From: a virus
Lineage: Duplodnaviria; Heunggongvirae; Uroviricota; Caudoviricetes
Length of the DNA: 14,929 nucleotides
Strand: one strand, 5' to 3'
IMG/VR virus record: IMGVR_UViG_3300042860_001920
Under the pieces are notes generated by a model that had not been told where the DNA came from, did not search any database, and saw nothing but the letters and a program-made list of their open reading frames with translations. Positions within the stretch are counted from its first letter, which is position 1; each line of letters begins with the position of its first letter. A program made the position numbers and the translations under genes. Below are positions 1 to 14,100 of the stretch, piece by piece.

Positions 1-26
1 CTTATGATAATCCTTGGCGTGGTGAT

Positions 27-2513
27 ATGGTTTTATCAGCAGGTTCAACACTTTCAGCAAGAGATATAGACACTAACACAATTTCACCATTTTCTGGAAA
101 TATTGTAACTGTTCCATATCCATACACACTTTTAGTAAGTAATTTATCTGCAATTTCTGCAACAATTAATCAGGTTAATATATTAGTTCAAGAATTATCA
201 GGATTTAAGGTAGAAGGTACTGACGTTGGGATATACATTCATCCTATTATAGTACCAGGTTCTAATGATTTAAGTATTAGCAACGCACCAATTAGTTCAA
301 ATAGTTGGGTATCTATTGCAGGTGATTTACAAACTCAGAACGATTTATTTGTAAGCGGTATTGCACATATTGCTAATGAATATGTTACAAATCTTACAGC
401 AGTTAATCTAAGTGCTTTAAATGCAATTACTTATAATTTAACAGGTGTTAATAATTACTTCTCCAATGTAACAGTAAGTAATTGTTTATCAACGAATTGT
501 GTAAGTCCATATACAGCAGGAGCATCGATTTCAGCATATGGTAATATCGACATGCGAGGATACAGCATTTCAGGAATTGGTGATAATTCACTGAGTTTCC
601 AAAGTGGTGCTAAAATAACTAGTCAAAATAATGGTGGATTATTATTAAAACCGAACACTAGTGGACATCCTGATGATTATCCATATATACACATTATACA
701 AAATAATGATGGATTTACTGGCTACGGTGACATTGAAATAAGTTGTGCGTCTGGTGTAGATGCTTATGCAGTATTAACCAATGGTAGTTATGTTTCAGGA
801 CACCAATCTGCGTTTGGAGTTTATGGTGATGGTACTGCATCTATATTTGGTAATCCTGTTAATATATTTGGTGATGTTGATATGCAGGGGCATAGCATTT
901 CAGGAATTGGTAATAATTCACTGAGTTTCCAAAGTGGTGCAAAGATTAGTAGCCCAAGCAATGGATTGCAAATATCTACAAATAATTTACCAAGAACGAC
1001 AATTACTTCAGGTGGTAATGTAGGTATCGGGACAACTTCACCAGATTCACAATTATCACTGGCTGGTTATGGTGCAATATCAATGGTAACAGGTAATACT
1101 AAAGGATTTGTAACGCATCAATATGGAGCTGATACTGGTAAAGATTATCTATCATTAGGTAGTAATTTTACAAGAACAAATGGATTAACAGGAAACATTA
1201 ATGCTGGTGGGATGTATTCATCAGAAATTAGACTTGAAAATCAAACCGCTTTTGCTGGTGGTGAATCACAAGTGGTTATAGCAACAACAAATATTGCTGG
1301 TACTATACCAATAGACCGATTTGTTGTTAAAGGTAATGGTAATGTAGGTATAGGAACATCTACACCATATTATTCACTTGATGTAAATGGAACAACAAAT
1401 CTAAACGGAGATGTTCAATTTCCCAATAATACTTGGATGTATACACCAGATGGTAGCAATCGAATTTATTTAATAACAGGCGGAGCAACTCAAATTCAAG
1501 GTGTAGGAACGGGAGCACAACATAACTTGAGAGCTTCTGATGGTTCTAACATTATTACAACTTTATATAATGGTAATGTAGGTATTGGAACAGATACCCC
1601 AAATGCTAAACTTGATGTAAATGGAACAGCTAGAATTGGTGGTGATTTAACAGTTTCAAATAATTTTTCGGCAAATAATATATATCCATATACAGCAGGT
1701 GCGAGTATATCTGCGTTTGGCAATATCGACATGCGAGGATTTAGCATCTCAGGAATTGGTAATAATTCTTTAAGTTTACAAAGTGGTTTAAAGATTGGAT
1801 CGGATGTTGATGGAAGATTTATAGCAACATCTTATGCATTTTCTGAAAATGAAGCATGTCTTGCATACGGTCAACACTCCCACACCGAAGGTATACAAAC
1901 AAGTGCTATGGATTCCGCAGCACACGCAGAAGGACTTCGTACATACGCATTTGGTTTGTACTCACACGCCGAAGGTATACAAACACAAGCGAATGGAGAC
2001 TACTCACATGCAGCAGGTTATAATTCCATAGCATCACATGACAGAACATATGTTTGGAGTTCTCATAATACACAAGTAGCATCAACAAACACAGATCAAT
2101 TCACAGTAAGTGCTGGAAATGGTGTAAGATTAGGGCAAAATGTTGATATTAGTGGTGATTTAACAGTTAATAACCATTACATTAGTCCAAAAACAACAAC
2201 ACTCACCCCTCAAGCCAGTGTAACAACAGATTTGAGCACAGGAAATACATTTAGAATAACGGTAACAGGGTCTACAATGCTCATGAATCCCACTAATGCT
2301 ACTGATGGTGCTTTATATGTATGGTATATTAAACAAGATGGTGTAGGTAGTCATGCAATCACACTAGGTGATAAGTTTGTAATACCAACAACTGCTACTA
2401 CACCTTTAGCATTTTCTGTTTCTGCAAATTATATGGATATTTTTGCAGCAAGAGCAGATGCTACATTAGATAAAATGTATGTTATAAGTATGATTCCAGG
2501 TTACAGTATATAA
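27..2513 (+). CDS. Modular phage tail fibre protein (>=828 aa; probably 5'-truncated by the window edge)
   Basis: The frame is open from nt 3 (YDNPWRGD-M) with no RBS before ATG 27, so the true start is probably upstream. It has three GNVGIGTxxP beta-repeat motifs (1014, 1338, 1572) and three copies of an IDMxGxSISGIGxNSLSxQSGxKI module. Four 14-aa SHAEG repeats resemble YadA-head/Hep_Hag repeats (1878-2045). The C-terminal domain (DLSTGNTF..LMNPTNATDG..IKQDGVGSHAITLG) resembles one commonly seen at phage fibre ends. Ends TAA. Confidence 0.8.
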   Translation: MVLSAGSTLSARDIDTNTISPFSGNIVTVPYPYTLLVSNLSAISATINQVNILVQELSGFKVEGTDVGIYIHPIIVPGSNDLSISNAPISSNSWVSIAGDLQTQNDLFVSGIAHIANEYVTNLTAVNLSALNAITYNLTGVNNYFSNVTVSNCLSTNCVSPYTAGASISAYGNIDMRGYSISGIGDNSLSFQSGAKITSQNNGGLLLKPNTSGHPDDYPYIHIIQNNDGFTGYGDIEISCASGVDAYAVLTNGSYVSGHQSAFGVYGDGTASIFGNPVNIFGDVDMQGHSISGIGNNSLSFQSGAKISSPSNGLQISTNNLPRTTITSGGNVGIGTTSPDSQLSLAGYGAISMVTGNTKGFVTHQYGADTGKDYLSLGSNFTRTNGLTGNINAGGMYSSEIRLENQTAFAGGESQVVIATTNIAGTIPIDRFVVKGNGNVGIGTSTPYYSLDVNGTTNLNGDVQFPNNTWMYTPDGSNRIYLITGGATQIQGVGTGAQHNLRASDGSNIITTLYNGNVGIGTDTPNAKLDVNGTARIGGDLTVSNNFSANNIYPYTAGASISAFGNIDMRGFSISGIGNNSLSLQSGLKIGSDVDGRFIATSYAFSENEACLAYGQHSHTEGIQTSAMDSAAHAEGLRTYAFGLYSHAEGIQTQANGDYSHAAGYNSIASHDRTYVWSSHNTQVASTNTDQFTVSAGNGVRLGQNVDISGDLTVNNHYISPKTTTLTPQASVTTDLSTGNTFRITVTGSTMLMNPTNATDGALYVWYIKQDGVGSHAITLGDKFVIPTTATTPLAFSVSANYMDIFAARADATLDKMYVISMIPGYSI
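507..1796 (+). repeat. Three dispersed in-frame copies of a 26-37 aa fibre module (507-617, 870-947, 1686-1796)
   Basis: PYTAGASISAYGNIDMRGYSISGIGDNSLSFQSGAKI / GDVDMQGHSISGIGNNSLSFQSGAKI / PYTAGASISAFGNIDMRGFSISGIGNNSLSLQSGLKI. Nucleotides 564-610 and 894-940 match at 46 of 47 positions. Confidence 0.95.
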
Positions 2514-2528
2514 AAGGAGTAATTAATT

Positions 2529-3461
2529 ATGGCAAATGCAACATTAACATATTCATTAGATACACCAAGTGCGGGAGTAGCAACAATTACAGGAAGAAGT
2601 TCTTCTGGTGCTGAAGATTTGGTAATACCAGCAACAATTGGAGGACAGAATGTAGTGGCGATTGCTGAGAGTGCTTTTAGTTCACAATCAGATTTAATTT
2701 CTTTGGATTTATCAGGAGCTACGAATCTTTTGACTATTGGTAATTATGCATTTAATATATGTTATGGTTTTACAGGAAGTTTAACAATTGGTAATTCTGT
2801 TACAAGTATTGGTTATGCTACATTCGCTGGGTGTTCTGGTTTTACAGGAAGCTTAACGATAGGCAATTCAGTTACAAGTATTGGTTATAATGCATTCGCT
2901 GAGTGTTCTGGTTTTACAGGAAGTTTAACTATTGGTAATTCAGTTACAAGTATTGGTGATTATGTATTTACTCAGTGTTCTGGTTTTACAGGAAATTTAA
3001 CTATTGGTAATTCAGTTACAAGTATTGGTTATGCTACATTCGCTGGGTGTTCTGGTTTTACAGGAAGTTTAACAATTGGAAGTTCTGTTACAAGTATTGG
3101 TGATAGTGCATTCACTGGTTGTTCTGGTTTTACAGGAAATTTAACTATTCCAAATTCAGTTACAAGTATTGGTGAAAGCGCATTCTCTAGTTGTACTGGT
3201 TTTACTTCAATTTGGCTAAAAGGTAATGCCCCCACGCTTGGTACAGATGCTTTTACAGGAATAACTCCAACAGCATTTTTCACATTATCTGGAACAACTG
3301 GATATGAAGGATTTGCTTACCCGATTGCACAAGTTCAATTAGTTGAAAATCCTGCCAGTGAAGTTAAAGAAGGTGTTGCATATGGGATTAATGGAAGATT
3401 GACAGGAACATTAAAATCGGGTGGTGGAATTAATGGCAGTTCAATACTTGGCATAATTTAA
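2529..3461 (+). CDS. BspA/TpLRR-type leucine-rich repeat protein A (LRR_5-like), 310 aa, 7 Cys-containing 24-aa repeats
   Basis: RBS AGGAG at 2515-2519. Typical BspA N-cap (ATITG...LVIPATIGGQNVVAIAESAF). Repeat consensus GFTGSLTIGNSVTSIGxxAFxxCS. C-cap KGNAPTLG. No signal peptide. Ends TAA. Confidence 0.93.
   Translation: MANATLTYSLDTPSAGVATITGRSSSGAEDLVIPATIGGQNVVAIAESAFSSQSDLISLDLSGATNLLTIGNYAFNICYGFTGSLTIGNSVTSIGYATFAGCSGFTGSLTIGNSVTSIGYNAFAECSGFTGSLTIGNSVTSIGDYVFTQCSGFTGNLTIGNSVTSIGYATFAGCSGFTGSLTIGSSVTSIGDSAFTGCSGFTGNLTIPNSVTSIGESAFSSCTGFTSIWLKGNAPTLGTDAFTGITPTAFFTLSGTTGYEGFAYPIAQVQLVENPASEVKEGVAYGINGRLTGTLKSGGGINGSSILGII
2733..3203 (+). repeat. 72-bp coding tandem repeat array (7 units) in LRR gene A
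   Basis: Conserved core tgttctggttttacaggaa[g/a]tttaac.att...aattc.gttacaagtattggt alternates with variable codons. Nucleotides 2799-2851 and 3015-3067 are identical (53 bp, offset 3x72). Confidence 0.95.
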
Positions 3462-3473
3462 AGGAGATAATTT

Positions 3474-5117
3474 ATGGCAAATGCAACATTAACATATTTA
3501 TTAGATACACCAAGTGCGGGAGTAGCAACAATTACAGGAAGAAGTTCTTCTGGTGCTGAGGATGTAGTAATACCAGCAACAATTGGAGGACAGAATGTAG
3601 TGGCTATTGCTGATAGTGCTTTTGATTCACAATCAGATTTAACTTCTTTGGATTTATCAGGGGCTACTAATCTTTTAACTATTGGTAATCTGGCATTTTT
3701 TGGTTGTTCTGGATTTAATGGTACTTTAACAATTGGTAATTCTGTTACAAGTATTGGTGGGATGGCATTTTATAATTGTTCTGGTTTTACAGGAAATTTA
3801 GTTATTCCAAATACAGTTACAACTATTGGTAATGATGCATTTGGTAACTGTACTGGTTTTAATGGTACTTTAACTATTGGTAATTCAGTAACAAGTATTG
3901 GTGCTTATGCATTTCAAAGTTGTTCTGGTTTTACAGGAAGTTTAGTCATTCCTAATTCAGTTACAACTATTGGTGTTTCTGCATTTCAATATTGTACTGG
4001 TTTTACAGGAAGTTTAACTATTCCAAATTCAGTTACAAGTATTGGTGAAAGCGCATTCTCTAGTTGTACTGGTTTTAATGGTACTTTGACAATTGGAAAT
4101 TCTGTTACAAGTATTGGAGATCAGGCATTTTATGCATGTAATGGTTTTACAGGAAGTTTAGTAATTCCTAACTCAGTTACAAGTATTGGTGGTTATGCGT
4201 TTGGTAGTTGTGGTTTTACAGGAAGTTTAACGATTGGTAGTTCTGTTACAAGTATTGGCGATTTTGCATTCGCTGATTGTTATGGTTTTACAGGTACTTT
4301 AACAATCGGAAGTTCTGTGACAAGTATTGGTGAAGCTGCATTTTCGGGCTGTTATGGTTTTACAGGTGATTTAACAATCGGTAATTCTGTTACAACTATT
4401 GGTAATGATGCATTTAATATATGTTATGGTTTTACAGGAAGTTTAACAATTCCTGATTCAGTAACAAGTATTGGTATTTATGCATTTGGTAGTTGTACTG
4501 GTTTTACAGGAAGTTTAACAATTGGAAGTTCTGTAATAAGTATTGGTGAATCTGCATTTAATGGTTGTTCTAGTTTTACGGGTAATTTAACAATTCCTAA
4601 TTCGGTTACAAGTATTGGTGAAGCTGCATTTTATCAGTGTACTGGTTTTACAGGAAGTTTAACAATTGGTAGTTCTGTTACAAGTATTGGTGATTATGCA
4701 TTTTATGGTTGTTCTGGTTTTACAGGAAGTTTAACAATTCCTGATTCAGTAACAAGTATTGGTGATTATGCATTTAGTAGTTGTTCTGGTTTTACAGGAA
4801 ATTTAACAATTGGAAATTCTGTTACAAGTATTGATGAAGGTGCATTTTCCAATTGTACTGGTTTTACATCATGTTGGTTTAAAGGTAATGCCCCCACGCT
4901 TGGTGATGTTTTTGCTTATATGACTATATCGGCATTTTTCACATTATCTGGAACAACTGGATATGAAGGATTTGCTTACCCGATTGCAATAGTTCCATTA
5001 GTTGAAAATCCTGCCAGTGAAGTTAAAGAAGGTGTTGCTTATGGGATTAATGCAAGATTGACAGGAACATTAAAATCGGGTGGTGGAATTAATGGTTCAA
5101 TTATCGGGATGGTTTAA
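3474..5117 (+). CDS. BspA/TpLRR-type leucine-rich repeat protein B (LRR_5-like), 547 aa, 17 repeats; paralog of 2529-3461
   Basis: RBS AGGAG at 3462-3466. Same caps as paralog A. The 237-aa length difference equals 10 extra 24-aa repeats minus three single-residue deletions (repeat 8 is 23 aa). No signal peptide. Ends TAA. Confidence 0.93.
   Translation: MANATLTYLLDTPSAGVATITGRSSSGAEDVVIPATIGGQNVVAIADSAFDSQSDLTSLDLSGATNLLTIGNLAFFGCSGFNGTLTIGNSVTSIGGMAFYNCSGFTGNLVIPNTVTTIGNDAFGNCTGFNGTLTIGNSVTSIGAYAFQSCSGFTGSLVIPNSVTTIGVSAFQYCTGFTGSLTIPNSVTSIGESAFSSCTGFNGTLTIGNSVTSIGDQAFYACNGFTGSLVIPNSVTSIGGYAFGSCGFTGSLTIGSSVTSIGDFAFADCYGFTGTLTIGSSVTSIGEAAFSGCYGFTGDLTIGNSVTTIGNDAFNICYGFTGSLTIPDSVTSIGIYAFGSCTGFTGSLTIGSSVISIGESAFNGCSSFTGNLTIPNSVTSIGEAAFYQCTGFTGSLTIGSSVTSIGDYAFYGCSGFTGSLTIPDSVTSIGDYAFSSCSGFTGNLTIGNSVTSIDEGAFSNCTGFTSCWFKGNAPTLGDVFAYMTISAFFTLSGTTGYEGFAYPIAIVPLVENPASEVKEGVAYGINARLTGTLKSGGGINGSIIGMV
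3678..4865 (+). repeat. 72-bp coding tandem repeat array (17 units, one of 69 bp) in LRR gene B
   Basis: Same unit as gene A. Near-identical blocks recur at multiples of 72 bp, e.g. the GFTGSLTIPDSVTSIG block at about 4428 and 4716. Confidence 0.95.
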
Positions 5118-5218
5118 GAAATAATACCTGAACGAGTGTTTGGGTCAGTTAGTAAACAGAGGATATTCTTAAATTAAATAAGAACAAATAAAAAAGTATA
5201 TATTTTGTGTGTTAGTGG

Positions 5219-5226
5219 TATAAATA
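5219..5226 (+). promoter_or_regulatory. Putative T4-type late promoter TATAAATA
   Basis: Exact match to the T4 gp55-dependent late promoter consensus. It lies in the 131-bp intergenic gap, 5 nt before RBS AAGGAG (5232-5237) and 22 nt before ATG 5249. Caveat: the DNA is AT-rich, and TGGTATAAA could also act as an extended -10 element. Confidence 0.65.
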
Positions 5227-5248
5227 ATAGTAAGGAGTAAATATTTAT

Positions 5249-6370
5249 ATGAAAAAATTTCTTTTATCGATCTATTTACTATTAACATTGCCAATTTTTA
5301 GTACATTTGGTGCTGGTCCAGCGGAAACCGTTAATCATTGGGTTGATTATCGTGTGATGCCTACCTATTTTGGTGTGCCTCTGGTGGATACTAATTTAAA
5401 CCTCACGACAATTAGTAATGATGTTGCTAATTTAACGGTTAGAGTGAATACACTAGAAGCTCAGACTAATTCTTATGCAAGTTTGTATAGTCTTAATATG
5501 CTTTCTAACAGAGTAGTAACCTTAGAAAGTCAAACAAATAGCTATGCGTCAAAAAGTATTACAAATGACGTTAATAGTAAAGTCAGCACGAATACAACCG
5601 TAACAATTAATGGTGTAACGCAACAACTTTCTAGCAACCTTAATTTTACTGTAACTGGTGGAGAAGTTAGTTCAAATAGTTTTAATGACGTTTCTAACAG
5701 AGTAGTAACCTTAGAAAGTCAAACAAATAGCTATGCGTCAAAAAGTATTACAAATAGTATCAACAGTTTATCTAATCGTATAGAGAGTGTCAATACAAAT
5801 TTACAAGGTCAAATAACAGCCGAATATCAAAGAGCTACTAATGCTGAATATGATTTAGATTTGAAGATAGGTATTACGTCCAATTACTTCTATAACTATA
5901 GTACCAATTTAGGGTATTTGATAGATGTTAATTCGAATTTGACATATCAATACTTTACTAATCTTTCGGATCAGATTTTAATCAATTCTAATCAAACATT
6001 CCTATATTACACAAACGTATTACAATTGTTGTATGTGGAGACAAATCGTGCAAATAGTGCTGAAACGAATCTATCAGCCAGAATTGACATAGAAACCAAT
6101 CGTGCAATTTCTGCTGAGACTAATTTACAAGGTCAAGTATCATCTGCTACAAATAGAATCTTCGCATTAGAAGGTGTTACAATTACCATTAATAACGTAA
6201 CGTCTAATATAGTTGATAATCCTATTTTCACTATAGCTGGTGGAGGCTCGAATACCTTGATAGAAGGAACCGGATTTCTGATCATATCAGACAGCGGGCC
6301 GACGAGTTATGTATATCATGTAACGTCCAGCGGTATAACCAACAAACTAATAGAATCATTTAATCGGTAG
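5249..6370 (+). CDS. Thr-Asn-rich coiled-coil fibre-like protein with predicted Sec-type signal peptide, 373 aa
   Basis: RBS AAGGAG. N-terminus MKKFLLSIYLLLTLPIFSTFG|A (basic, hydrophobic, small-residue cleavage region). Repeats SNRVVTLESQTNSYASKSITN x2 and ETNRAxxAETNL x2. Two TIN(G/N)VT...N..FT(V/I)xGG motifs resemble phage fibre shaft repeats. Ends TAG. Confidence 0.8.
   Translation: MKKFLLSIYLLLTLPIFSTFGAGPAETVNHWVDYRVMPTYFGVPLVDTNLNLTTISNDVANLTVRVNTLEAQTNSYASLYSLNMLSNRVVTLESQTNSYASKSITNDVNSKVSTNTTVTINGVTQQLSSNLNFTVTGGEVSSNSFNDVSNRVVTLESQTNSYASKSITNSINSLSNRIESVNTNLQGQITAEYQRATNAEYDLDLKIGITSNYFYNYSTNLGYLIDVNSNLTYQYFTNLSDQILINSNQTFLYYTNVLQLLYVETNRANSAETNLSARIDIETNRAISAETNLQGQVSSATNRIFALEGVTITINNVTSNIVDNPIFTIAGGGSNTLIEGTGFLIISDSGPTSYVYHVTSSGITNKLIESFNR
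5502..5755 (+). repeat. Perfect 65-bp direct repeat (5502-5566 and 5691-5755) inside gene 4
   Basis: tttctaacagagtagtaaccttagaaagtcaaacaaatagctatgcgtcaaaaagtattacaaat occurs twice, offset 189 nt (63 codons). Confidence 0.95.
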
Positions 6371-6379
6371 GAGGCATCT

Positions 6380-6631
6380 ATGGCTAATGTAGTAAAATTC
6401 GATATCGTGGAGGCGTCCAACCTGACGGGGACGAACACTGGAGACCAGGAAGCGGGTACGTACGCCTATAACCCTGATGGAACACTGCATACGACCACAA
6501 CAGCGTATGGAGTGCGTACCATGGCGTATAATCCAGATGGTACGCTAGCGAGCATCACAGGGACGGGCGTCTACAAGACAAAGACATTTACGTATGTCGG
6601 CGGAGTTTTAACAGGAATCAGCGTGGAGTAA
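6380..6631 (+). CDS. Small phage protein with TGTNTGDQ motif and YD-like repeats, 83 aa (putative virion/fibre accessory)
   Basis: RBS AGGAGG (6369-6374) overlaps the upstream TAG. Contains NLTGTNTGDQ (a motif I recognise from phage fibres), YNPDGTL twice and KTKTFTYVGGVLTGIS. GC is about 50-60% in sampled lines. Confidence 0.8.
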   Translation: MANVVKFDIVEASNLTGTNTGDQEAGTYAYNPDGTLHTTTTAYGVRTMAYNPDGTLASITGTGVYKTKTFTYVGGVLTGISVE

Positions 6632-6638
6632 ATAAATT

Positions 6639-9600
6639 ATGGCAAACCAAACAGTATCGACAGACTTAAACTATGACTCATCTGCAATAAGCGGATTAGC
6701 TAATGGTGATAATATCACTATCAATTCAGGTGCGAAACTTACAGTCAACTCTGATATGCGTTGGGGTCAGCAATCTGCTGTCGTTGGAGATATTGATATT
6801 ACTGAAGGTGAGTTAAAAATTGATGCTACTGAAACTTGGTGGATTCCTTTTGATACTTCTAGCGGTAATGTTCCTGCTCTTGGAACAGTTGGGACTCCTG
6901 ATGTAACTCGTGGTGGTTCAAATGTCGGAGAGTTTCTTGGTGTATTTACTGCACTTGGAGTTGCTCCTTCAACTGCTGGTAGTTCAATGCCTGCAAGTGG
7001 ATTTATCAAATTAAGAACAAAGAGTGTAACTCTTGCTGATGATGATGTATTAACTTTCACAGGTGGAGCGACAATTACAATCAACTCTACTACTGGTGGT
7101 CAAAGAGGCTGGCTTCATATTGTAGGAGAAGAAGGAACAACTTCTTTAACGGGTCGTGTTCACGCATCATCACTTTTATCTAAAATAACTACCAATGGTG
7201 GATGGTTTGAACTTGGTGTATCTAATGGTGTAGCAGGACAAGTCTTTCAGCATTTCGTTGGGGATTATTGCCCTGCATTACAAGTAGAAACTGGTAATGG
7301 AACTGGCATATATCAATGGTGGGGTGCTTGTGCTGTAGCAGATTTCTCTGATGTAAATGTACCAACAGATGCTCGTGGTAGATGGTATTCTTGCACATCT
7401 GCGGGTGTGATTACTTTTGGTGGTGATACATACGGAGTTCTTCCACCAAGCGGTGCTCGTATTCGTGTTCCTAATATTCATATAAGCACATCAACAAGTG
7501 CAGACTGGTCTGCAAATGTTGTTAATGCAGTAACTCCTATTTACAGGTATCGTTTGTTTGGTTCTCCAGGAGCGTTGGATATTAACTATGTTATATCTTG
7601 TGGAAACATTATTGGACAGACCACTCAATCTTATTCGGTAAAAACAAGTGCAGGGTTGGATGGTTGTTTTTATGGTAATGCAGGAACTCCTTCTACTTAT
7701 CATTCTAATGTCGTATTTGAAAATGTTTCAACATCATTCGTTCTAACACCAGGGCGTATTCAACTTGGATTTGCTTTTTCAGAGAACTTATCATTTACAG
7801 ATGTAAATGTTTTTAGGATGCCTTCGTATGATAGTGCATCTAGCCCTATGTCGTTTTCCGCGTGTAACAATGTTACATTCACAAGACTTGAGTTGTTTGG
7901 TAGACAACAAGGAGGTTCTTGTCTTCTTGTAACTTCATCATCAAATGTGGTCTTTGATAATTGTGTTATTGTCACTCCTGCTGTTTATGCAGTTACGCTA
8001 ACAAGCAGTATAAATGTCATAATGCGAAACTCGCAGTTTTGTGGGCGTATGGTTGGGGCAACTGGAGCACCAAACTATGAGATTTACGCAAATGATATAA
8101 ACGGGTTGATTATTGACGGATTAACTATGTTTTCTGGTATCAATTTAGGGCCATCAAACCAATTTATATATTCTTCAGGTGGTCGTAATATTAGAGTTAG
8201 AAATATTGGAACTCGTGACGTTGCTCCTGTAGTAATAGATTTAGCAAGAGAACTCGTTTCATTAGTAAATGTAAGAAATGCTCGTCTTGAAAGAGTGTTT
8301 TACAGACCAAGGGCAGGTTATGATATTAACCTATTAGTGCAAAATGCGACTGATGATGTGATTCAATCAGATTGTGGATGGAGTTATACCGCAGGGGCAT
8401 TTGCACAAGCCATCACAGATGTTAATAGGTCAAAGAGAATAATTGGTGGTGGACTTAAAACTTATGCCACAGCACCGATAGCAGGAAGAACTTGTTCAGT
8501 TTTCAATGCTCGTGGAATGCACTTCGTAGAGCAAGAGGTTTCTGCAACAGAAATTATGCTAACTGTTATGACTGGTTCTCCTAAAACCACGAGTGATTTT
8601 TCTTCTCCTGCTTATACTGAAGATGCAGGAACTATTTTACGAGATGGAAATAACGGACTAGCATTAAGAAACATCGGTGACCAAGTAACTTGGACTTGGG
8701 GTTGGTATATTCTTGGAGTTAATAGCCTTCAGAATACAGCACCATTACTTGATGGAGTTAATACAGGTAACTTCACATTAACTTATGATATTGATAAAGG
8801 TAATGGATTTAGTGGTTCATTCAAAGCATTAACTGCATCAAACTGGTCTGCGGAAACAGGAATTTCTCCGAGCATTGGTTTCAGATGGAAATTACGGGCA
8901 GTATGTAATACGGCTAACACAAGTAATTTACTTCGTGCTGTATCTATGTTCTGTGATACAACACAACAGACACTAACTGATAATCCTTATCCATACAATG
9001 AACCTAAAGTAGCTCTGTCAAACACTCAGGCTGGTTCACTCGGTGCTGTATTTCAAAATAGTAATGGAAAACTCCTTGATGTAAAATCAGCGACAACTCC
9101 AAACTTATATCCAGCTTGGTATTCTGATGCTTCTTGCACAGTAAGAGTTCGTAAAGCAGGTTGGAACGAAGTAGAAACTCCGTTTACACTTACAGAAGAT
9201 GGAGCAAGTTTTCCGCTTAATCAAACTAATAGTGCAATACCAGATACAGACCCAGGGGCATTAGGAATCACAGTAACCAACCATGGTGCTTCTCCTGTAA
9301 CTTGGGAAGGCAAAGAATATTCAATCACGATAACGGTATCCGACAGTTCCACGGCTGCGCAGATCGCTCAGTATATCTCGTGGCATACAGCGCAGGACGC
9401 ATACTCGCTAGTCACTGGTTATCACAACATGGCACTACCTGCGATGGTCGTAGCGGTCGGAGCTGAGGTGGAAACGTCGAGAGGCACCCTGTTCGGATCA
9501 GCAGGAGCATCCTTGAAGGGTGTCCGTGTGGTAGACGGCTCCGACAACGCTATCGCGGGATTCGCACGATTCCAGTCCGATGACGGCACGTACTACACCA

Positions 9601-10319
9601 CGCCGCAGATCGCCACGATCTCCCACGCAACCTTGCTGGCTGGATCGCGGGTGCAGCTGTTCAATGTGACAACGGACACGGAGATCGAGAACGTGGTGTT
9701 GGCTGGGGTCGGGTACGAATACAGCTACACTGGAGGGGTCGGTATCAGTGAGGGAGACACCATACGCCTGCGGGCAACGAAGGTTGGGTACCTTGGCTTG
9801 GAACTTAACAGTGCCGCAGGTGTGCAGGGTTCATCTTTTGTTGATACTCAGGTGGTAGACACGGTTTACGTGTCCAATGGTATAGACGGAAGCGCGATAA
9901 CGGAGTTTACGGCATCATACAATGATGTTCAGATAGAACTTGACGACCCTGACGGTATCACGACGGTGCAGCGCATGTATGCATGGTATCATTTCAATCT
10001 TACGACAGAACTCGGGATACGCCACTATTTCGGGACATGTGTGGCCGAAGACTTGGTTAATTACAGGATAGTAACGACCGTTATGACTTTGAATCTGGAT
10101 AATGTGACCGCAAACCCCGTACGCCTAGTGGGAGCGAGAATCTACCGCGACGATGGCGGCGCACTCATCGCCCCGTCGAGCGGGAGCATACAGATAGAAC
10201 CAGACAAGGTATACGCTATTGAAACAGGAGTGAGTGGGTTGACGCCACAGGAAAGTGCGGAGTTGTTCAAACTTACGCCTATCAAGAAGAATGTGGACTT
10301 GATACCCGCTTTACTGTAA
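6639..10319 (+). CDS. Large virion-associated protein with central right-handed parallel beta-helix (tailspike/pectin-lyase-like), 1226 aa
   Basis: GGAG at 6625-6628. Beta-helix-like periodicity at about 7710-8310 (NVVFENVS, NLSFTDVNV, NNVTFTRLEL, SNVVFDNCVI, INVIMRNSQF, RNIRVRNI, RNARLERV). C-terminal ETGVSGLTPQES motif is reminiscent of phage proteins. The last ~1 kb has GC-rich codon usage. Enzymatic activity is not demonstrated. Confidence 0.7.
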   Translation: MANQTVSTDLNYDSSAISGLANGDNITINSGAKLTVNSDMRWGQQSAVVGDIDITEGELKIDATETWWIPFDTSSGNVPALGTVGTPDVTRGGSNVGEFLGVFTALGVAPSTAGSSMPASGFIKLRTKSVTLADDDVLTFTGGATITINSTTGGQRGWLHIVGEEGTTSLTGRVHASSLLSKITTNGGWFELGVSNGVAGQVFQHFVGDYCPALQVETGNGTGIYQWWGACAVADFSDVNVPTDARGRWYSCTSAGVITFGGDTYGVLPPSGARIRVPNIHISTSTSADWSANVVNAVTPIYRYRLFGSPGALDINYVISCGNIIGQTTQSYSVKTSAGLDGCFYGNAGTPSTYHSNVVFENVSTSFVLTPGRIQLGFAFSENLSFTDVNVFRMPSYDSASSPMSFSACNNVTFTRLELFGRQQGGSCLLVTSSSNVVFDNCVIVTPAVYAVTLTSSINVIMRNSQFCGRMVGATGAPNYEIYANDINGLIIDGLTMFSGINLGPSNQFIYSSGGRNIRVRNIGTRDVAPVVIDLARELVSLVNVRNARLERVFYRPRAGYDINLLVQNATDDVIQSDCGWSYTAGAFAQAITDVNRSKRIIGGGLKTYATAPIAGRTCSVFNARGMHFVEQEVSATEIMLTVMTGSPKTTSDFSSPAYTEDAGTILRDGNNGLALRNIGDQVTWTWGWYILGVNSLQNTAPLLDGVNTGNFTLTYDIDKGNGFSGSFKALTASNWSAETGISPSIGFRWKLRAVCNTANTSNLLRAVSMFCDTTQQTLTDNPYPYNEPKVALSNTQAGSLGAVFQNSNGKLLDVKSATTPNLYPAWYSDASCTVRVRKAGWNEVETPFTLTEDGASFPLNQTNSAIPDTDPGALGITVTNHGASPVTWEGKEYSITITVSDSSTAAQIAQYISWHTAQDAYSLVTGYHNMALPAMVVAVGAEVETSRGTLFGSAGASLKGVRVVDGSDNAIAGFARFQSDDGTYYTTPQIATISHATLLAGSRVQLFNVTTDTEIENVVLAGVGYEYSYTGGVGISEGDTIRLRATKVGYLGLELNSAAGVQGSSFVDTQVVDTVYVSNGIDGSAITEFTASYNDVQIELDDPDGITTVQRMYAWYHFNLTTELGIRHYFGTCVAEDLVNYRIVTTVMTLNLDNVTANPVRLVGARIYRDDGGALIAPSSGSIQIEPDKVYAIETGVSGLTPQESAELFKLTPIKKNVDLIPALL

Positions 10320-10330
10320 TTAAAACTACT

Positions 10331-10408
10331 ATGAATTGGCTCCGCTCAATACTGCAATCCATCGGCATCGGTCAGTATGATAGTAGCCATTTGTTAGCAG
10401 GAGATTAA
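10331..10408 (+). other. Possible 25-aa ORF or gene remnant (MNWLRSILQSIGIGQYDSSHLLAGD)
   Basis: ATG 11 nt after the stop of gene 6, with no clear RBS. Composition resembles the GC-richer block. May be the stump of a donor gene at a recombination junction. Confidence 0.2.
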
Positions 10409-10409
10409 T

Positions 10410-10552
10410 ATGAGCATAGATTTTGTAGCAACCAACCCAGTATTGGAGTGTTTGCCCCTGATCCAGTTCCAGTAGTTGAAGAACCTGTTGTGGAACCTGA
10501 TCCTATACCTGAAGAACCAGTTGTAGATCCTATTGAAGAACCTGTTGCATAA
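10410..10552 (+). pseudogene. Frameshifted or internally deleted small gene with Pro/Glu/Val-rich acidic tail
   Basis: AGGAG (10399-10403) precedes ATG 10410, whose frame reads MSIDFVATNP... and stops at TAG 10473-10475. The -1 frame has no ATG but reads PSIGVFAPDPVPVVEEPVVEPDPIPEEPVVDPIEEPVA-TAA (10550-10552). One extra base near aacccag (10434-10440) would restore a 47-aa protein. Confidence 0.55.
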
Positions 10553-10585
10553 TTTAAATACAGTGATAGAATTATCATAATTTTT

Positions 10586-10593
10586 ACTAAATA
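10586..10593 (+). promoter_or_regulatory. Possible late promoter variant ACTAAATA
   Basis: The core TAAATA of the T4-like late promoter sits in the intergenic gap, 12 nt before RBS AGGAG (10606-10610) and 26 nt before ATG 10620, a similar geometry to 5219-5226. It deviates from the T4 consensus and lies in AT-rich DNA. Confidence 0.45.
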
Positions 10594-10619
10594 ATTAAAA
10601 GAAACAGGAGAAATAATAT

Positions 10620-11111
10620 ATGACAATTCAAGCAGATTTTAGTGTACCATATCCACCATCCCAAGCAGAAGATGGAAAATTCGTTTATCTTAATCCATCT
10701 ACATTACCAAACTATCCAGAAACCTACACAAATAGTTATACTGGATCAGCAATACCAACAAGAGGTCGTTATGCTCAATTAGTTTACAGTGTAGGTGGAG
10801 ATTCTTCTGGAACAATTTTATCAGGTGGTTTACCTAATACTACTTTGGAACAATTGGTAACATTTAATACAAATGCTTCATCTATGATAACATTTGATCC
10901 TGCTGTTACCCTTATGGAAGTATCTAATCGTTCAACTGGTTCTATTTATATCTCTTATGCAAATCCAGTAACAAGTTTTAGTAGCCTTACAGCCGCTGGT
11001 TTAGAAATTGCCAAAGGTTCGTTTTATAGTATTGAAAGAACTGTTACAAATGTCACCATTGGTTCAGTTGCTGGTGGTAATGTTGTAGTGTTCGGTCATT
11101 ATAAAGCATAA
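10620..11111 (+). CDS. Hypothetical phage protein, 163 aa (beta-rich C-terminal half, possible virion component)
   Basis: RBS AGGAG at 10606-10610; clean ORF with codon usage like the AT-rich genes. The C-terminal half alternates hydrophobic residues (LMEVSNRSTGSIYISY...LEIAKGSFYSIE..VTNVTIGS) as in a small beta-sandwich. No family recognised. Confidence 0.75.
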   Translation: MTIQADFSVPYPPSQAEDGKFVYLNPSTLPNYPETYTNSYTGSAIPTRGRYAQLVYSVGGDSSGTILSGGLPNTTLEQLVTFNTNASSMITFDPAVTLMEVSNRSTGSIYISYANPVTSFSSLTAAGLEIAKGSFYSIERTVTNVTIGSVAGGNVVVFGHYKA

Positions 11112-11119
11112 GGAGTACC

Positions 11120-14100
11120 ATGAAAAAACAATTATTCAAACTATTAGCCGTATTAGCTCTTTCTTTAAACAGTTTTGGTGGTTCTACAATGACACCATCT
11201 GTGGTAGATTTACCTATTGTAGTAGAACAAGTTAGCAACCTTACAGTAGAAGTATCTAAAAAAGTAGACACTAATGATCTACAATCTACCACACTAGGAT
11301 CAGAAGGTATTAGACAAGTTGGAGCATTAGGTGGTTACAATTTGGATAGATTTTTAGCAGATTCCGCTGCACGTGGAGTTACAAGAGATTATCCAGTATT
11401 TACCTATACACAAGCAGTTCTACCTAGTTTGGAGTTTGCATGGACTGCTGGTGATGTTTATTCTCCTATACATGGATATTATCATATGGTTGCAGGAAGT
11501 AACACACTTACCGACAACAGGGTAAATTATGGATATTGGAGAGTAAACAATCCATATGAAATGCAATGGACAGTAAACACTTTATCTGATATCGAAAATA
11601 CTATTCCAGTTGTAACTGTTTCATGTGCTCAAGGCAGAATTCTTCATGTTGGTGATACTGTTCCCATGGGTGAAATGCCTTTGAGAATGGATAATGCACA
11701 CCGTAAAATCTTCCCTTCGTTAATTGTAGATGGATTAAATTTCAGTCCACTTAATTATACAAATTACAATTTAAATGCTATCATACAAACCGCTGGTACT
11801 GAAATCCATAATATGATAGAGATTAATACCCATCCTTCTAAAAATTTAACTGAATATAATGTGGCTCTTGGAAAATTCTTAATCCCTATATATAGAACAA
11901 ATACTGATATGTGGGTAACTGGGTTAGCTAGTAATTTACCTGTAGATCAATGGGATAATGGTAGTAATCTTGTTTCTTGTGTTGAGAGTAACTGGTATCG
12001 TGGTTTGCTATTTTCTGCTGCTAATTCAAAACAAATGGCATACATGTATCCACAAGCATCATATACAAATTACGCTGATGCTCTTGCTGGTGCTGATCCA
12101 GATATGCCTCCGGGGTTTGCTCCATATATTCCTCGTTGTACTGCTTATATTTTCATGGGTGGTGATACTAATTTAAGAACATCTGCGGATTCATGGATTG
12201 ATAGAAGATTGATAATCCAAAGAGGTAATGTTTCAACTTCTTCTGGTGGTGGGTCTGGTGCAATTCCCTCATTAACACAAATATTAGCACAGAGTCCAAA
12301 TTCTGGTGGTTATTTTATAGATGGTCTTACTGGCTTACCTTCTAATGACGATCAAGTTGTTAATAAACTTTACGTTGATTCAAAAATCAATAATATGAAT
12401 TCAGGTAAGGCATACGTTGACCCTAATGGTAATGATGCCACCGCAGAATTGCATAGTTCTACCTTACCTTTCAAGACAATTCAAGCCGCCATTAATGCCG
12501 CTGCGAATGATACCAACAGATACATTGTTCTACTTAGCCCCGGTGTTTATGATTTAAACGGTACAAACATCATAATGAAAGAGAATGTATCACTAGAAGG
12601 TGCAGACATACAAGGCTGTATTATTATTGGTGCTATATACTATCCTACTAATTATATGGATATTAGTGGTTCAGAAATAGCGAAGTTGTCTGTATTCTCT
12701 CATAATGAACCATCTATTGTTATTAATGCTGGTGCTGACGATGCTTATGCAGGAATACGATCATGCTGGTTGAGAGCAAATTATGATAATACAGTTTCAG
12801 AAAAATCTGTTGTATTAATTAAAAGAGGACTGGTAGAAGATTATGGAACGACATATCATGAGTTGAATATTTTAACTACTAATGGTTCGGTTGACCACGT
12901 TTCTATCTTTGCACACACAACAGATACAAATAACCAAGGATTGAGCACATTTACTGCATTTGCTCCTTCGTCTATTCTAAATTGTACTGATACTAATGAT
13001 GAGATCAGTTTGATGCATACCTATGATAATACGGACACTGCCTGTATTAATGAATGTATTGCGGGTAATTTCAATATCATTATAAACCACGGTAATGACA
13101 TGCATAACAACAAAATTAAACTAGTTTCACATGACAACGCAGTTGGCAGTACGTTGTCAATGGGTAATGCTACAAGATTATACATGGACGAAACAAACAA
13201 TTGTAATTTATTTATGGCGTTTGCAAAAGATGGAACAGGTGAGAATGTTGCTATAATTAGAAATAATCATGTACGAGTTATAAGTGGTTCATCATCTAAC
13301 ATATGGTTTGGTGCGGCTACTACAACTAACGACAATATTCGCATATACGACACTGAGATAATTCAGAAGAATTTCTTCAACTATTATCCAAAACGTTATA
13401 CGGCTGAAGGTTCTGATGGTAGTTATTATATCAATACAGCGCATCAAAATGGTGATATAATTTTAGGTGGAGCACTTGATATGTTTACACCTAATAGTTT
13501 GAACGATATCACTTATAATTTACCTAGTGTTGGTCATATAAAGATTTATCTTGATAATACTACTGGATTGGAGCAACCTTATTACATAGACTCAACTGGC
13601 ACAAAATTCAGAATTTGTCGTGATTCAGTTTTCCTTGGGTACAACACCGAAACTAATACTTTGATGCCCGGAGAAGTTGTAAGCATTACTCCCGGTTCTA
13701 CCAACCATTTACAGAACATCAAACGTGCTACCTGTATTTTGGGTGATCAGTCACTAGTGCTTGGTATTATTAATACTCAAAATGGTGTTCCTGCTGGTGC
13801 CAAGGCTCATGTTATGGCAATTGGAACAACAGAGGCAACCCCTATTGATACATCTATGTACATTGCAGGTACACCATTATATCTTAGTGCAACTACAGCG
13901 GGTGGGTTTACTAACGTACCTCCACTACCTCCATTTGTTACAAAGCAAATTGGATGGTGTGGTTTCAGTTCTACAAATGGCACGATTATTGTTAATCGTT
14001 TTCCTGCTGATGTATTAGGTGATCAAATTCCATCGTACTATGCAACTGCTTCTAACTTAGTTGCAGAGACAAATAGAGCGTATGTTGCTGAGACTAATTT

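What the first reader, a model, noticed from the sequence alone, without database searches (positions are those of the whole stretch)
2529..5117. Tandem pair of variable-repeat LRR genes with near-identical caps: a candidate phage 'variable LRR receptor' locus
Seen: two adjacent intact genes, each with its own RBS. Their first 72 codons differ at only 12 of 216 nt (2529-2744 vs 3474-3689) and a 54-codon C-terminal block at 5 of 162 nt (3273-3434 vs 4932-5093). Between the caps lie 7 versus 17 repeats of 72 bp with a nearly fixed scaffold and hypervariable codons at SIG-xx-AF-xx-C-x. Established: BspA/TpLRR (LRR_5) proteins are binding scaffolds, usually surface proteins of bacteria. Inference: constant caps plus a variable stack of repeats, inside a fibre cluster, resembles a recombination-diversified receptor repertoire (conceptually like lamprey VLRs). 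The shared caps allow unequal crossover to generate chimeric, longer, shorter or extra copies with no dedicated enzyme. I cannot tell from sequence alone whether such loci are already described in phages.
Basis: partly seen in the sequence, partly recalled or inferred. Interest (0 to 1): 0.78.

Follow-up and report, generated by a model that had tools for sequence, protein, structure and literature searches.

The report
Duplicated LRR adhesin genes beside phage fibre
A large T4-like phage carries two neighbouring copies of a bacterial-type leucine-rich-repeat binding protein, with 7 and 17 repeats, directly after a tail-fibre gene; they are probably fibre-associated adhesins reshaped by ordinary recombination, and I found no sign of a programmed receptor-diversifying system.

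Summary
Genes 2529-3461 (310 aa) and 3474-5117 (547 aa) are intact BspA-type LRR_5 genes, each with its own AAGGAG ribosome-binding site. Their caps differ at 12/216 and 5/162 nt, and they hold 7 and 17 units of 72 bp.

In favour:
- The phage is T4-like. An overlapping IMG/VR contig carries a Gp23 capsid gene.
- A fibre gene followed by an LRR gene recurs in a complete 236-kb relative (one gene, 3 units) and in a third contig (6 units). Other relatives have no LRR gene there.
- Blocks of 65 and 44 nt are identical out of register between the two genes.
- The N-cap is under purifying selection.

Against:
- The pattern "fixed scaffold, hypervariable IG-xx-AF-xx-C" is generic to this LRR_5 subfamily. 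Ninety-nine homologues, mostly with no named source, show it.
- Tandem BspA paralogues are common in MAG and metagenome contigs.
- The window has no silent cassettes, invertase, reverse transcriptase or inverted repeats.
- The one chimeric variant found (237 aa, on a 986-bp contig) switches parent only at the longest exact repeats, so it may be an assembly mis-join.

Virion location is untested. Unchecked first-reader notes of this scan report similar multi-copy BspA loci in other genomes. Interest is moderate.

The parts
3..2513 (+). Fibre-type gene, with its 5' end cut by the window. The real start is about 120 bp upstream and reads MSSRFHNKFHR... (L041:9881).
   Evidence: tblastn matches tail spike and tail fiber genes of Flavobacterium and Verrucomicrobia phages. 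It matches Bdellovibrio fibre chains 8ojn (E 3.5e-6). It is homologous to the 1364-aa fibre ORF of L050 (E 3e-26). IMG/VR contig L041 is 100% identical over residues 1-141.
2514..2519 (+). Ribosome-binding site AAGGAG of gene A, 9 nt before the ATG
2529..3461 (+). LRR gene A, 310 aa (P0001). N-cap 2529-2726, seven 72-bp units 2727-3230, C-cap 3231-3335, C-terminal tail 3336-3458.
   Evidence: The AF2 model has pLDDT above 90 over most of residues 1-210, falling to about 75-90 up to about residue 240 and below 50 for residues 248-310. Foldseek matches 4fs7, 4fd0 and 6mlx TpLRR.
3461..3466 (+). Ribosome-binding site AAGGAG of gene B, overlapping the stop codon of gene A
3474..5117 (+). LRR gene B, 547 aa (P0002). 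N-cap 3474-3671, seventeen units 3672-4892 (unit 8 lacks one codon), C-cap and tail 4893-5114.
3140..3204 (+). 65-nt block identical to 4013-4077 in gene B (units A6/A7 = B5/B6, out of register). It includes four hypervariable codons (IG-ES-AF-SS-C) and is the longest exact repeat in the whole locus.
2746..2789 (+). 44-nt block identical to 4408-4451 (unit A1 = B11)
2799..2851 (+). 53-nt block identical to 3015-3067 (units A2 = A5, offset 216 bp). The 3-unit deletion seen in variant P0003 maps to this repeat.
10620..11111 (+). 163-aa ORF that marks the downstream edge of the syntenic block. In the complete relative L050 its homologue follows the single LRR gene after a gap of about 170 bp.

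Best explanation
The two genes are tandem paralogues of a small phage subfamily of BspA/TpLRR-type (LRR_5) proteins. They lie in a roughly 250-kb T4-like phage, in the slot directly downstream of a trimeric-fibre-type gene.

Shown here:
- Both genes are intact and are LRR beta-solenoids.
- The arrangement of a fibre gene followed by an LRR gene recurs in other phage contigs.
- The number of genes (0, 1 or 2) and of units (3, 6, 7, 17) differs between relatives.
- Blocks have moved out of register between the two genes.
- The N-cap is under purifying selection.

Inferred:
- The proteins have no signal peptide, so they are probably made in the cytoplasm with the fibre.
- They probably act as accessory adhesins or receptor-binding modules of that fibre. 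By position this resembles gp38 of T-even phages.
- The stripe of four variable residues per unit would form the binding surface.
- The family-specific, unmodelled C-terminal tail of about 45 aa is the candidate docking element.
- Keeping two copies with different stacks would give the phage two binding specificities.

The diversity is best explained by ordinary homologous recombination among the 72-bp units and the shared caps over evolutionary time (unit gain and loss, block conversion, gene duplication). I see no sign of a programmed or somatic diversification system.
For: LRR_5 membership and fold.

Phage identity: IMG/VR contig L041 is 100% identical to the window's first 423 bp of the fibre gene, and that contig encodes a Gp23 major capsid protein (E 5e-91).

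Synteny: L050, a complete 236-kb Gp23-type phage with terminal repeats, has a homologous fibre gene (E 3e-26), then its only LRR_5 gene (186 aa, 3 units, 56% identity), then a homologue of the window's 163-aa ORF (E 5e-17). In L002, a fibre C-terminal domain aligns end to end with that of the window (E 8e-4) and is followed 14 nt later by a 281-aa LRR gene with the same N-cap and tail.

Selection: in N-cap codons 1-45, gene A against L002 shows 18 synonymous and 3 non-synonymous differences. Among units, the hypervariable codons have pN 0.60 and pS 0.34, while the scaffold has pN 0.047 and pS 0.27.

Recombination: 65- and 44-nt identical blocks lie out of register between the genes.

Other points: both genes have strong ribosome-binding sites and gaps of 15 nt and 12 nt to the gene before them, so they probably form one operon with the fibre gene. 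Neither has a signal peptide, by inspection of the N-termini. The tail is family-specific and not modelled as a monomer.
Against: No evidence places either protein in the virion or on the fibre. In other phages LRR_5 genes sit among replication genes or beside an invertase, not among tail genes. The 10 kb upstream of the fibre gene holds a glycosyltransferase-like ORF and an endonuclease, not baseplate genes. Close relatives L054 and L055 have no LRR gene after the fibre gene, so the protein is dispensable for the fibre. The LRR protein of L050 lacks the C-terminal tail, so the docking idea rests on only two co-occurrences. There is no sequence similarity to gp38.
Confidence: 0.55

Rival explanations
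1. The locus is an actively diversifying receptor repertoire. Unequal crossover between the shared caps and units would generate co-existing chimeric, longer and shorter variants at appreciable frequency within phage populations, and selection would maintain the locus for that purpose.
For: Identical tracts of 53-65 nt lie in the caps and units. From general knowledge, T4-type recombination can use tracts of this length. P0003 equals, at 236 of 237 residues, the product predicted from recombination at three of these tracts. Gene and unit numbers differ among relatives. P0001 occurs on 15 contigs, whereas no near-identical gene B is in the protein collection.
Against: P0003 comes from a 986-bp contig, and every switch falls at the longest exact repeats. 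That is also what a de Bruijn-graph mis-join produces. Synonymous divergence between units is substantial (pS 0.27), so most units are old and not recently shuffled. Gene A is identical on 15 contigs, which argues for stability. The window holds no cassettes, invertase, reverse transcriptase or inverted repeats. The variable positions are generic to the family.
Confidence: 0.12
2. The proteins are non-structural, intracellular LRR proteins that bind host proteins, for example in host takeover or counter-defence. On this reading their position beside the fibre gene is incidental.
For: They have no signal peptide. LRR domains are general protein-binding scaffolds. In Heliusvirales phages, LRR_5 genes lie among replication and nucleotide-metabolism genes. 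The neighbourhood upstream of the fibre gene is not a classical structural module.
Against: The position directly after a homologous fibre gene, with a 12-15 nt gap, is kept in three diverged phage contigs. All the other large ORFs in the window are fibre-like.
Confidence: 0.2
3. The proteins are fibre assembly chaperones, like the Tfa proteins or T4 gp38. They would be needed to fold the upstream fibre but would be absent from the finished particle.
For: The gene directly downstream of a tail-fibre gene is very often its chaperone (general knowledge). The LRR gene varies together with the fibre C-terminal type.
Against: A chaperone gives no reason for two copies with 7 and 17 units, or for diversification of the exposed positions (pN/pS 1.75 at the hypervariable codons). 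I know of no LRR-type fibre chaperone. Relatives with homologous fibres lack the gene.
Confidence: 0.08
4. One of the two copies, or the unit count of gene B, is an assembly artefact of the repeat array.
For: The exact gene B protein is absent from the protein collection. An independent IMG/VR assembly of the same phage ends about 2 kb upstream of the locus.
Against: The copies differ by 17 substitutions in the caps, by an indel near the C-terminus, and in almost every hypervariable codon. Each has its own ribosome-binding site and reading frame. The longest exact repeat within gene B is 49 nt and within gene A 53 nt, short enough for standard read lengths to resolve. Gene A is identical in 15 assemblies.
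Confidence: 0.03

Closest known systems
BspA / TpLRR-type leucine-rich-repeat proteins (Pfam LRR_5, PF13306), for example Tannerella forsythia BspA, Treponema pallidum TpLRR (PDB 6MLX), and Bacteroides and Faecalibacterium surface proteins 4FS7 and 4GT6
   Same: They share the Pfam family, the 23-24-residue unit (L.I[PG]..V..IG..AF..C), the N- and C-caps, the predicted beta-solenoid, and the same four variable positions per unit.
   Different: The phage proteins have no signal peptide, lipobox or cell-wall anchor. They carry a family-specific C-terminal tail (V.eGvaYG.n.LTGT..GGGINGS.ILGII) that I found in only a handful of proteins among 1.8 billion cluster representatives. They are encoded directly after a phage fibre gene.
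LRR_5 / BspA proteins annotated in other phages (PHROG 35892 and 18805; Klebsiella phage N1M2, Vibrio phage pir03 ORF 287 in PMC7765460, crAss-like cr273_1, many uncultured gut phages)
   Same: These are phage-encoded LRR_5 proteins of unknown function.
   Different: Identity is below 55%, and most are much longer multidomain proteins. In the two annotated records I opened, the LRR gene lies among replication and nucleotide-metabolism genes, and in one of them beside a DNA invertase, not after a fibre gene. I found no paper that assigns them a role.
gp38 adhesin of T2/T6/S16-type T-even phages. This comparison is from my own knowledge and was not checked in the paper library.
   Same: The gene lies directly downstream of a fibre gene in a T4-like phage. 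The protein has conserved parts plus short hypervariable segments set in a repeated, conserved scaffold. The proposed role is the receptor-binding tip.
   Different: There is no sequence or fold relationship. gp38 is a polyglycine-sandwich protein, whereas this is an LRR solenoid. There are two copies here. Attachment to the fibre is not shown.
Lamprey and hagfish variable lymphocyte receptors (VLR)
   Same: The architecture is LRR with N- and C-caps and a variable number of internal units whose variable residues line one surface.
   Different: In VLRs an incomplete germline gene is completed somatically from flanking donor cassettes, with cytidine deaminases. Here both genes are complete, no cassettes lie outside them, and no deaminase is encoded in the window. 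The resemblance is architectural only.
Expanding LRR gene families shaped by unit concatenation and recombination (Trichomonas vaginalis BspA-like family, PMC2843621; Protochlamydia lgr genes, PMC2216083). I know these from titles and abstracts only.
   Same: Paralogous LRR genes differ mainly in unit number and in the residues at fixed positions. Tandem BspA paralogues are also seen in MAG and metagenome contigs L010, L012 and L017.
   Different: Those families are cellular. This locus is a two-gene array in a phage fibre region.

Membership tests
Pfam LRR_5 (BspA/TpLRR-type LRR) | Match to PF13306 above the gathering score | tested here: met
   129.3 and 420.8 bits against a cut-off of 27.7
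Pfam LRR_5 (BspA/TpLRR-type LRR) | Tandem units of 23-24 residues with the motif L.I[PG]..V..IG..AF..C | tested here: met
   There are 7 and 17 units in register; the per-codon table shows I, G, F, C, F, G, L and I invariant.
Pfam LRR_5 (BspA/TpLRR-type LRR) | LRR solenoid fold like the solved TpLRR and Bacteroides LRR_5 structures | tested here: met
   The AF2 model has pLDDT above 90 over most of residues 1-210, with one strand (LTI) per unit. Foldseek gives probability 1.00 to 4fs7, 4fd0, 4gt6 and 6mlx, with TM-scores of only 0.28-0.57 because length and curvature differ. phmmer against PDB sequences gives E 1.7e-36 to 4gt6.
Bacterial BspA-type surface adhesins | Export and surface anchoring (signal peptide, lipobox, T9SS or cell-wall anchor) | tested here: not met
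   Both N-termini read MANATLTYSLDTPSAGVATITG, with no charged n-region or hydrophobic h-region. This was judged by inspection; no predictor was available. Pfam finds no anchor domain.
VLR-type somatic LRR assembly | An incomplete receptor gene plus flanking silent LRR donor cassettes | tested here: not met
   Both genes are complete ORFs. All 13 scaffold-motif matches lie inside the two genes on the + strand. The 80-kb adjoining contig has no LRR_5 match. The rest of the genome could not be searched.
VLR-type somatic LRR assembly | Co-existing assembled variants within one population | not testable with these tools
   No reads were available. The only variant found, P0003, is ambiguous.
T-even gp38 adhesins | Homology to gp38 | tested here: not met
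   The only Pfam and PHROG matches are to LRR families.
T-even gp38 adhesins | Gene directly downstream of a fibre gene in a T4-like phage | tested here: met
   A 15-nt gap follows the fibre-type ORF. Gp23 is encoded on the adjoining contig. The same order occurs in L050 and L002.
T-even gp38 adhesins | The protein sits at the fibre tip in the virion and binds the receptor | not testable with these tools
   This needs proteomics, structural work or binding assays.
Diversity-generating retroelement targets | A reverse transcriptase and a template repeat near the variable gene | tested here: not met
   None of the 8 window ORFs matches a reverse transcriptase. The variable codons are spread over 24 units rather than one VR/TR pair. 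Only the window was searched.
Invertase-switched fibre or adhesin genes (Mu Gin type) | An invertase gene and inverted repeats that flank alternative gene segments | tested here: not met
   Both genes lie on the same strand. The window has only one weak 21-nt inverted repeat, far from the locus, and no invertase match.

The most novel reading that the evidence does not exclude
LRR solenoids are a so far undescribed class of phage receptor-binding adaptor. A conserved C-terminal tail would plug interchangeable BspA-type LRR adhesins onto the tip of a T4-like phage fibre. The phage would keep two such adhesins (7 and 17 units) and would re-tool its host range by recombining the 72-bp units and shared caps, so that real recombinants such as P0003 circulate in natural populations.
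Probability: 0.2. Interest if true: 0.7.

Novelty: new member of a known kind. Interest (0 to 1): 0.4.

Why it matters
If these proteins are fibre-tip adhesins, they would add the LRR solenoid to the known scaffolds of phage receptor-binding proteins. The LRR is a fold whose specificity is easy to read and to re-engineer unit by unit. They would also give a natural example of host-range change through gain, loss and exchange of repeat units. As it stands, the locus is a clear but fairly ordinary case of a BspA-type paralogue pair. Its practical value is as a defined candidate for virion proteomics and binding tests: two genes, one fibre, and one conserved tail. It is also a caution that "fixed scaffold plus hypervariable positions" in LRR_5 genes is a family property and does not by itself indicate a diversification system.

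Tried and rejected
- Megablast of the whole window against 50,697 phage records found no match. No whole genome is held for the window.
I therefore could not fetch the 15 contigs that carry P0001, or the contigs of P0003, P0004, P0032 and P0125.
- The metagenome and genome scans with P0001 returned only distant relatives, the best being L002 at 56%.
- The whole-protein search with P0002 was swamped by generic BspA proteins: 7876 hits and no close relative.
- Searches of IMG/VR with the 373-aa ORF and with the C-terminal tail alignment found nothing.
- Relatives of the 1226-aa ORF lie in unrelated contexts without LRR genes.
- A DGR is rejected: the window has no reverse transcriptase and no single VR/TR pair.
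- An invertase switch is rejected: the genes share one strand and no inverted repeats flank them.
- Silent cassettes are rejected.
- The T4 late-promoter motif TATAAATA is not enriched (3 matches against 2.4 expected) and does not occur before the LRR genes.
- No terminator-like site lies between the genes; the only such site in 1-6700 falls inside gene B.
- A simple model in which A is a collinear subset of B is rejected. The best A-to-B unit matches still differ at 9-15 of 72 nt, against 3-6% divergence in the caps, and they are not in order.
- Paper searches for phage BspA or LRR receptor-binding proteins returned nothing relevant.
Full report
**Observation.** ORFs 2529-3461 (310 aa, P0001, "A") and 3474-5117 (547 aa, P0002, "B") are intact and lie on the + strand. 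Each has AAGGAG 7-9 nt before its ATG, and the site for B overlaps the stop codon of A. Both are strong Pfam LRR_5 (BspA-type) matches, at 129 and 421 bits against a cut-off of 27.7. In register, A has 7 and B has 17 units of 24 residues, and one unit of B has 23. Tandem Repeats Finder reports period 72 with 6.2 and 16.6 copies. Residue entropy is 2.7-2.9 bits at unit codons 6, 7, 10 and 11 (IG-xx-AF-xx-C), about 1.6 at codons 13 and 18, about 1.0-1.2 at codons 22 and 23, and 0-0.8 at the remaining codons.

**Is it phage DNA?** The window has no close match in GenBank phage records, and no genome is held for it.
- An 80-kb IMG/VR viral contig (L041) is 100% identical to the first 141 residues of the upstream ORF and ends there. 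That contig encodes a T4-type major capsid protein, Gp23, at E 5e-91.
- P0001 occurs on 15 contigs, the longest 249,720 bp. The window therefore belongs to a roughly 250-kb T4-like phage.
- The upstream ORF (3-2513) really starts upstream of the window with MSSRFHNKFHR. It resembles tail spike and tail fiber genes and Bdellovibrio trimeric fibre chains 8ojn.

**Related genomes.**
- L050 lies in a complete 236-kb Gp23-type phage with terminal repeats. It has a homologous fibre gene (E 3e-26, same N-terminal motif). After a 14-nt gap comes its only LRR_5 gene (186 aa, 3 units, 56% identical to A). A homologue of the window's 163-aa ORF 10620-11111 follows (E 5e-17).
- In L002, the C-terminal domain of the upstream ORF aligns end to end with that of the window's fibre (E 8e-4). 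A 281-aa LRR gene with 6 units follows 14 nt later and has the same N-cap and C-terminal tail.
- Two other relatives, L054 and L055, have no LRR gene after the fibre gene.
- The fibre C-terminal domain differs between relatives.
- The fibre-then-LRR module is therefore real and recurrent. It is also optional, and it varies in gene number (0, 1, 2) and in unit number (3, 6, 7, 17). Family members without genomic context have 4 units (P0003) and about 13 (P0004).

**How the two copies relate.**
- The caps are close: pS is 0.10 in the N-cap and 0.025 in the C block.
- No unit of A is that close to any unit of B in register. The best pairs differ at 9-15 of 72 nt, and they are not collinear.
- The longest exact repeat in the whole locus runs between the genes and out of register: 65 nt, 3140-3204 = 4013-4077, covering four hypervariable codons. 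A second block of 44 nt has 2746-2789 = 4408-4451.
- The arrays have therefore exchanged blocks. Either the caps were homogenised, or the duplication is recent and the stacks were rebuilt afterwards.
- Between units, scaffold codons have pN 0.047 and pS 0.27, and hypervariable codons have pN 0.60 and pS 0.34. The units are not young copies, and the four positions are unconstrained or under diversifying selection.

**Calibration.**
- I measured the same four positions in 99 homologues from the general protein collection. Most carry no source name; the named ones are bacterial MAG proteins. The median entropy is 2.35 bits at those positions against 0.56 in the scaffold. B ranks 16th of 99. The pattern of fixed scaffold and hypervariable xx is a property of this LRR_5 subfamily.
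- Tandem BspA paralogues recur in MAG and metagenome contigs recovered with the same query (L010, L012, L017).
- LRR_5 proteins are annotated in many phages and form two PHROG families of unknown function. In two annotated gut phages they lie among replication genes, and in one case next to a DNA invertase.
- I found no paper that gives them a role in phages.

**What is specific to this locus.**
- The subfamily is tiny. It is defined by the N-cap MANATLTY...GGQNVVAI and by a C-terminal tail V.eGvaYG.n.LTGT..GGGINGS.ILGII.
- Only P0001-P0004, P0125, the fragment P0127, the L002 protein and, for the N-cap alone, P0032 were found among billions of proteins.
- The N-cap is under strong purifying selection: 18 synonymous against 3 non-synonymous codon differences over codons 1-45, A against L002.
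- AF2 models residues 1-247 as a confident solenoid with one LTI strand per unit. Residues 248-310 fall below pLDDT 50.
- The tail occurs together with the window-type fibre C-terminus in both the window and L002. It is absent from the LRR protein of L050, whose fibre ends differently. This is a weak hint (n = 2 against 1) that the tail docks on the fibre tip.

**Population variation.**
- P0003 (237 aa, from a 986-bp ENA contig) matches a product predicted from the window DNA at 236 of 237 residues. The predicted product joins A 2529-2798, A 3015-3329 and B 4989-5117.
- Its one odd residue, residue 9, carries the B allele.
- All three switches therefore sit at the longest exact repeats (60, 53 and 57 nt). 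Homologous recombination would produce this pattern, and so would a de Bruijn-graph mis-join on a very short contig. I lean towards an artefact but cannot decide.
- The exact B protein, and any near-identical protein of 300-958 aa, is absent from the protein collection, although A is present on 15 contigs.

**Mechanisms excluded within the window.** There are no LRR units outside the two genes or on the other strand. No inverted repeats flank the locus. No window ORF matches an invertase, reverse transcriptase or deaminase. The adjoining 80 kb holds no other LRR_5 gene.

**Verdict.** The best reading (confidence 0.55) is a tandem pair of phage BspA-type LRR proteins that serve as fibre-associated accessory adhesins. 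They have been reshaped over evolutionary time by ordinary recombination among units and caps. Their role is gp38-like by position, but they are not members of that family. The VLR analogy is architectural only. Active, population-level diversification remains possible (about 0.12) and can be tested directly with spanning reads. Other first-reader notes of this scan describe similar multi-copy BspA loci with shared caps in other genomes. I did not check those notes.

Noticed in passing
window 9000-10500: GC content jumps from about 0.35-0.42 to 0.50 in the C-terminal part of the 1226-aa ORF (6639-10319). Relatives in IMG/VR match only residues 1-1031, so the tip looks like a mosaic or acquired segment.
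   Followed up: partly
window 14065-14401: Two arrays of 54-bp tandem repeats (2.3 and 2.6 copies, 78-79% matches) lie inside the 1259-aa ORF 11120-14899.
   Followed up: no
window 5249-6370 and 11120-14899: Both fibre-like ORFs begin with Sec-type signal-peptide-like N-termini (MKKFLLSIYLLLTLPIFSTFGAG and MKKQLFKLLAVLALSLNSFGGS), unlike the two LRR genes. Another report of this scan, e1-5414564, already covers this.
   Followed up: no
window 5118-10619: About 5.5 kb holding three ORFs (373, 83 and 1226 aa) lies between LRR gene B and the 163-aa ORF. The complete relative L050 has no counterpart: there the 156-aa homologue follows the LRR gene after about 170 bp.
   Followed up: partly
window 6380-6631: An 83-aa ORF has two AYNPDGTL repeats, which resemble YD/RHS-type repeats. 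It has no significant family match.
   Followed up: no
L048 (PV036423.1, phage NatCom_17901) 7473-12774: Three adjacent hypothetical genes lie here, two on the + strand and one on the - strand, and at least the first is an LRR_5 gene. They abut a gene annotated as DNA invertase. This may be an invertase-switched LRR locus in a gut Heliusvirales phage.
   Followed up: no
L041:9881-10423, L050:5883, L055:5699, L054:5252: The fibre genes of this phage group share an N-terminal motif, RFH[NS]K[FW]HR.(N)HHT. The window's fibre ORF starts upstream of the window.
   Followed up: partly
P0032 (861 aa, JGI contig of 25.7 kb): In this protein the same N-cap (84% identical) sits internally at about residue 297, after an extra 300-aa Gly-rich N-terminal domain. 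The protein ends in a different C-terminus, so the N-cap and the tail are separable modules.
   Followed up: partly
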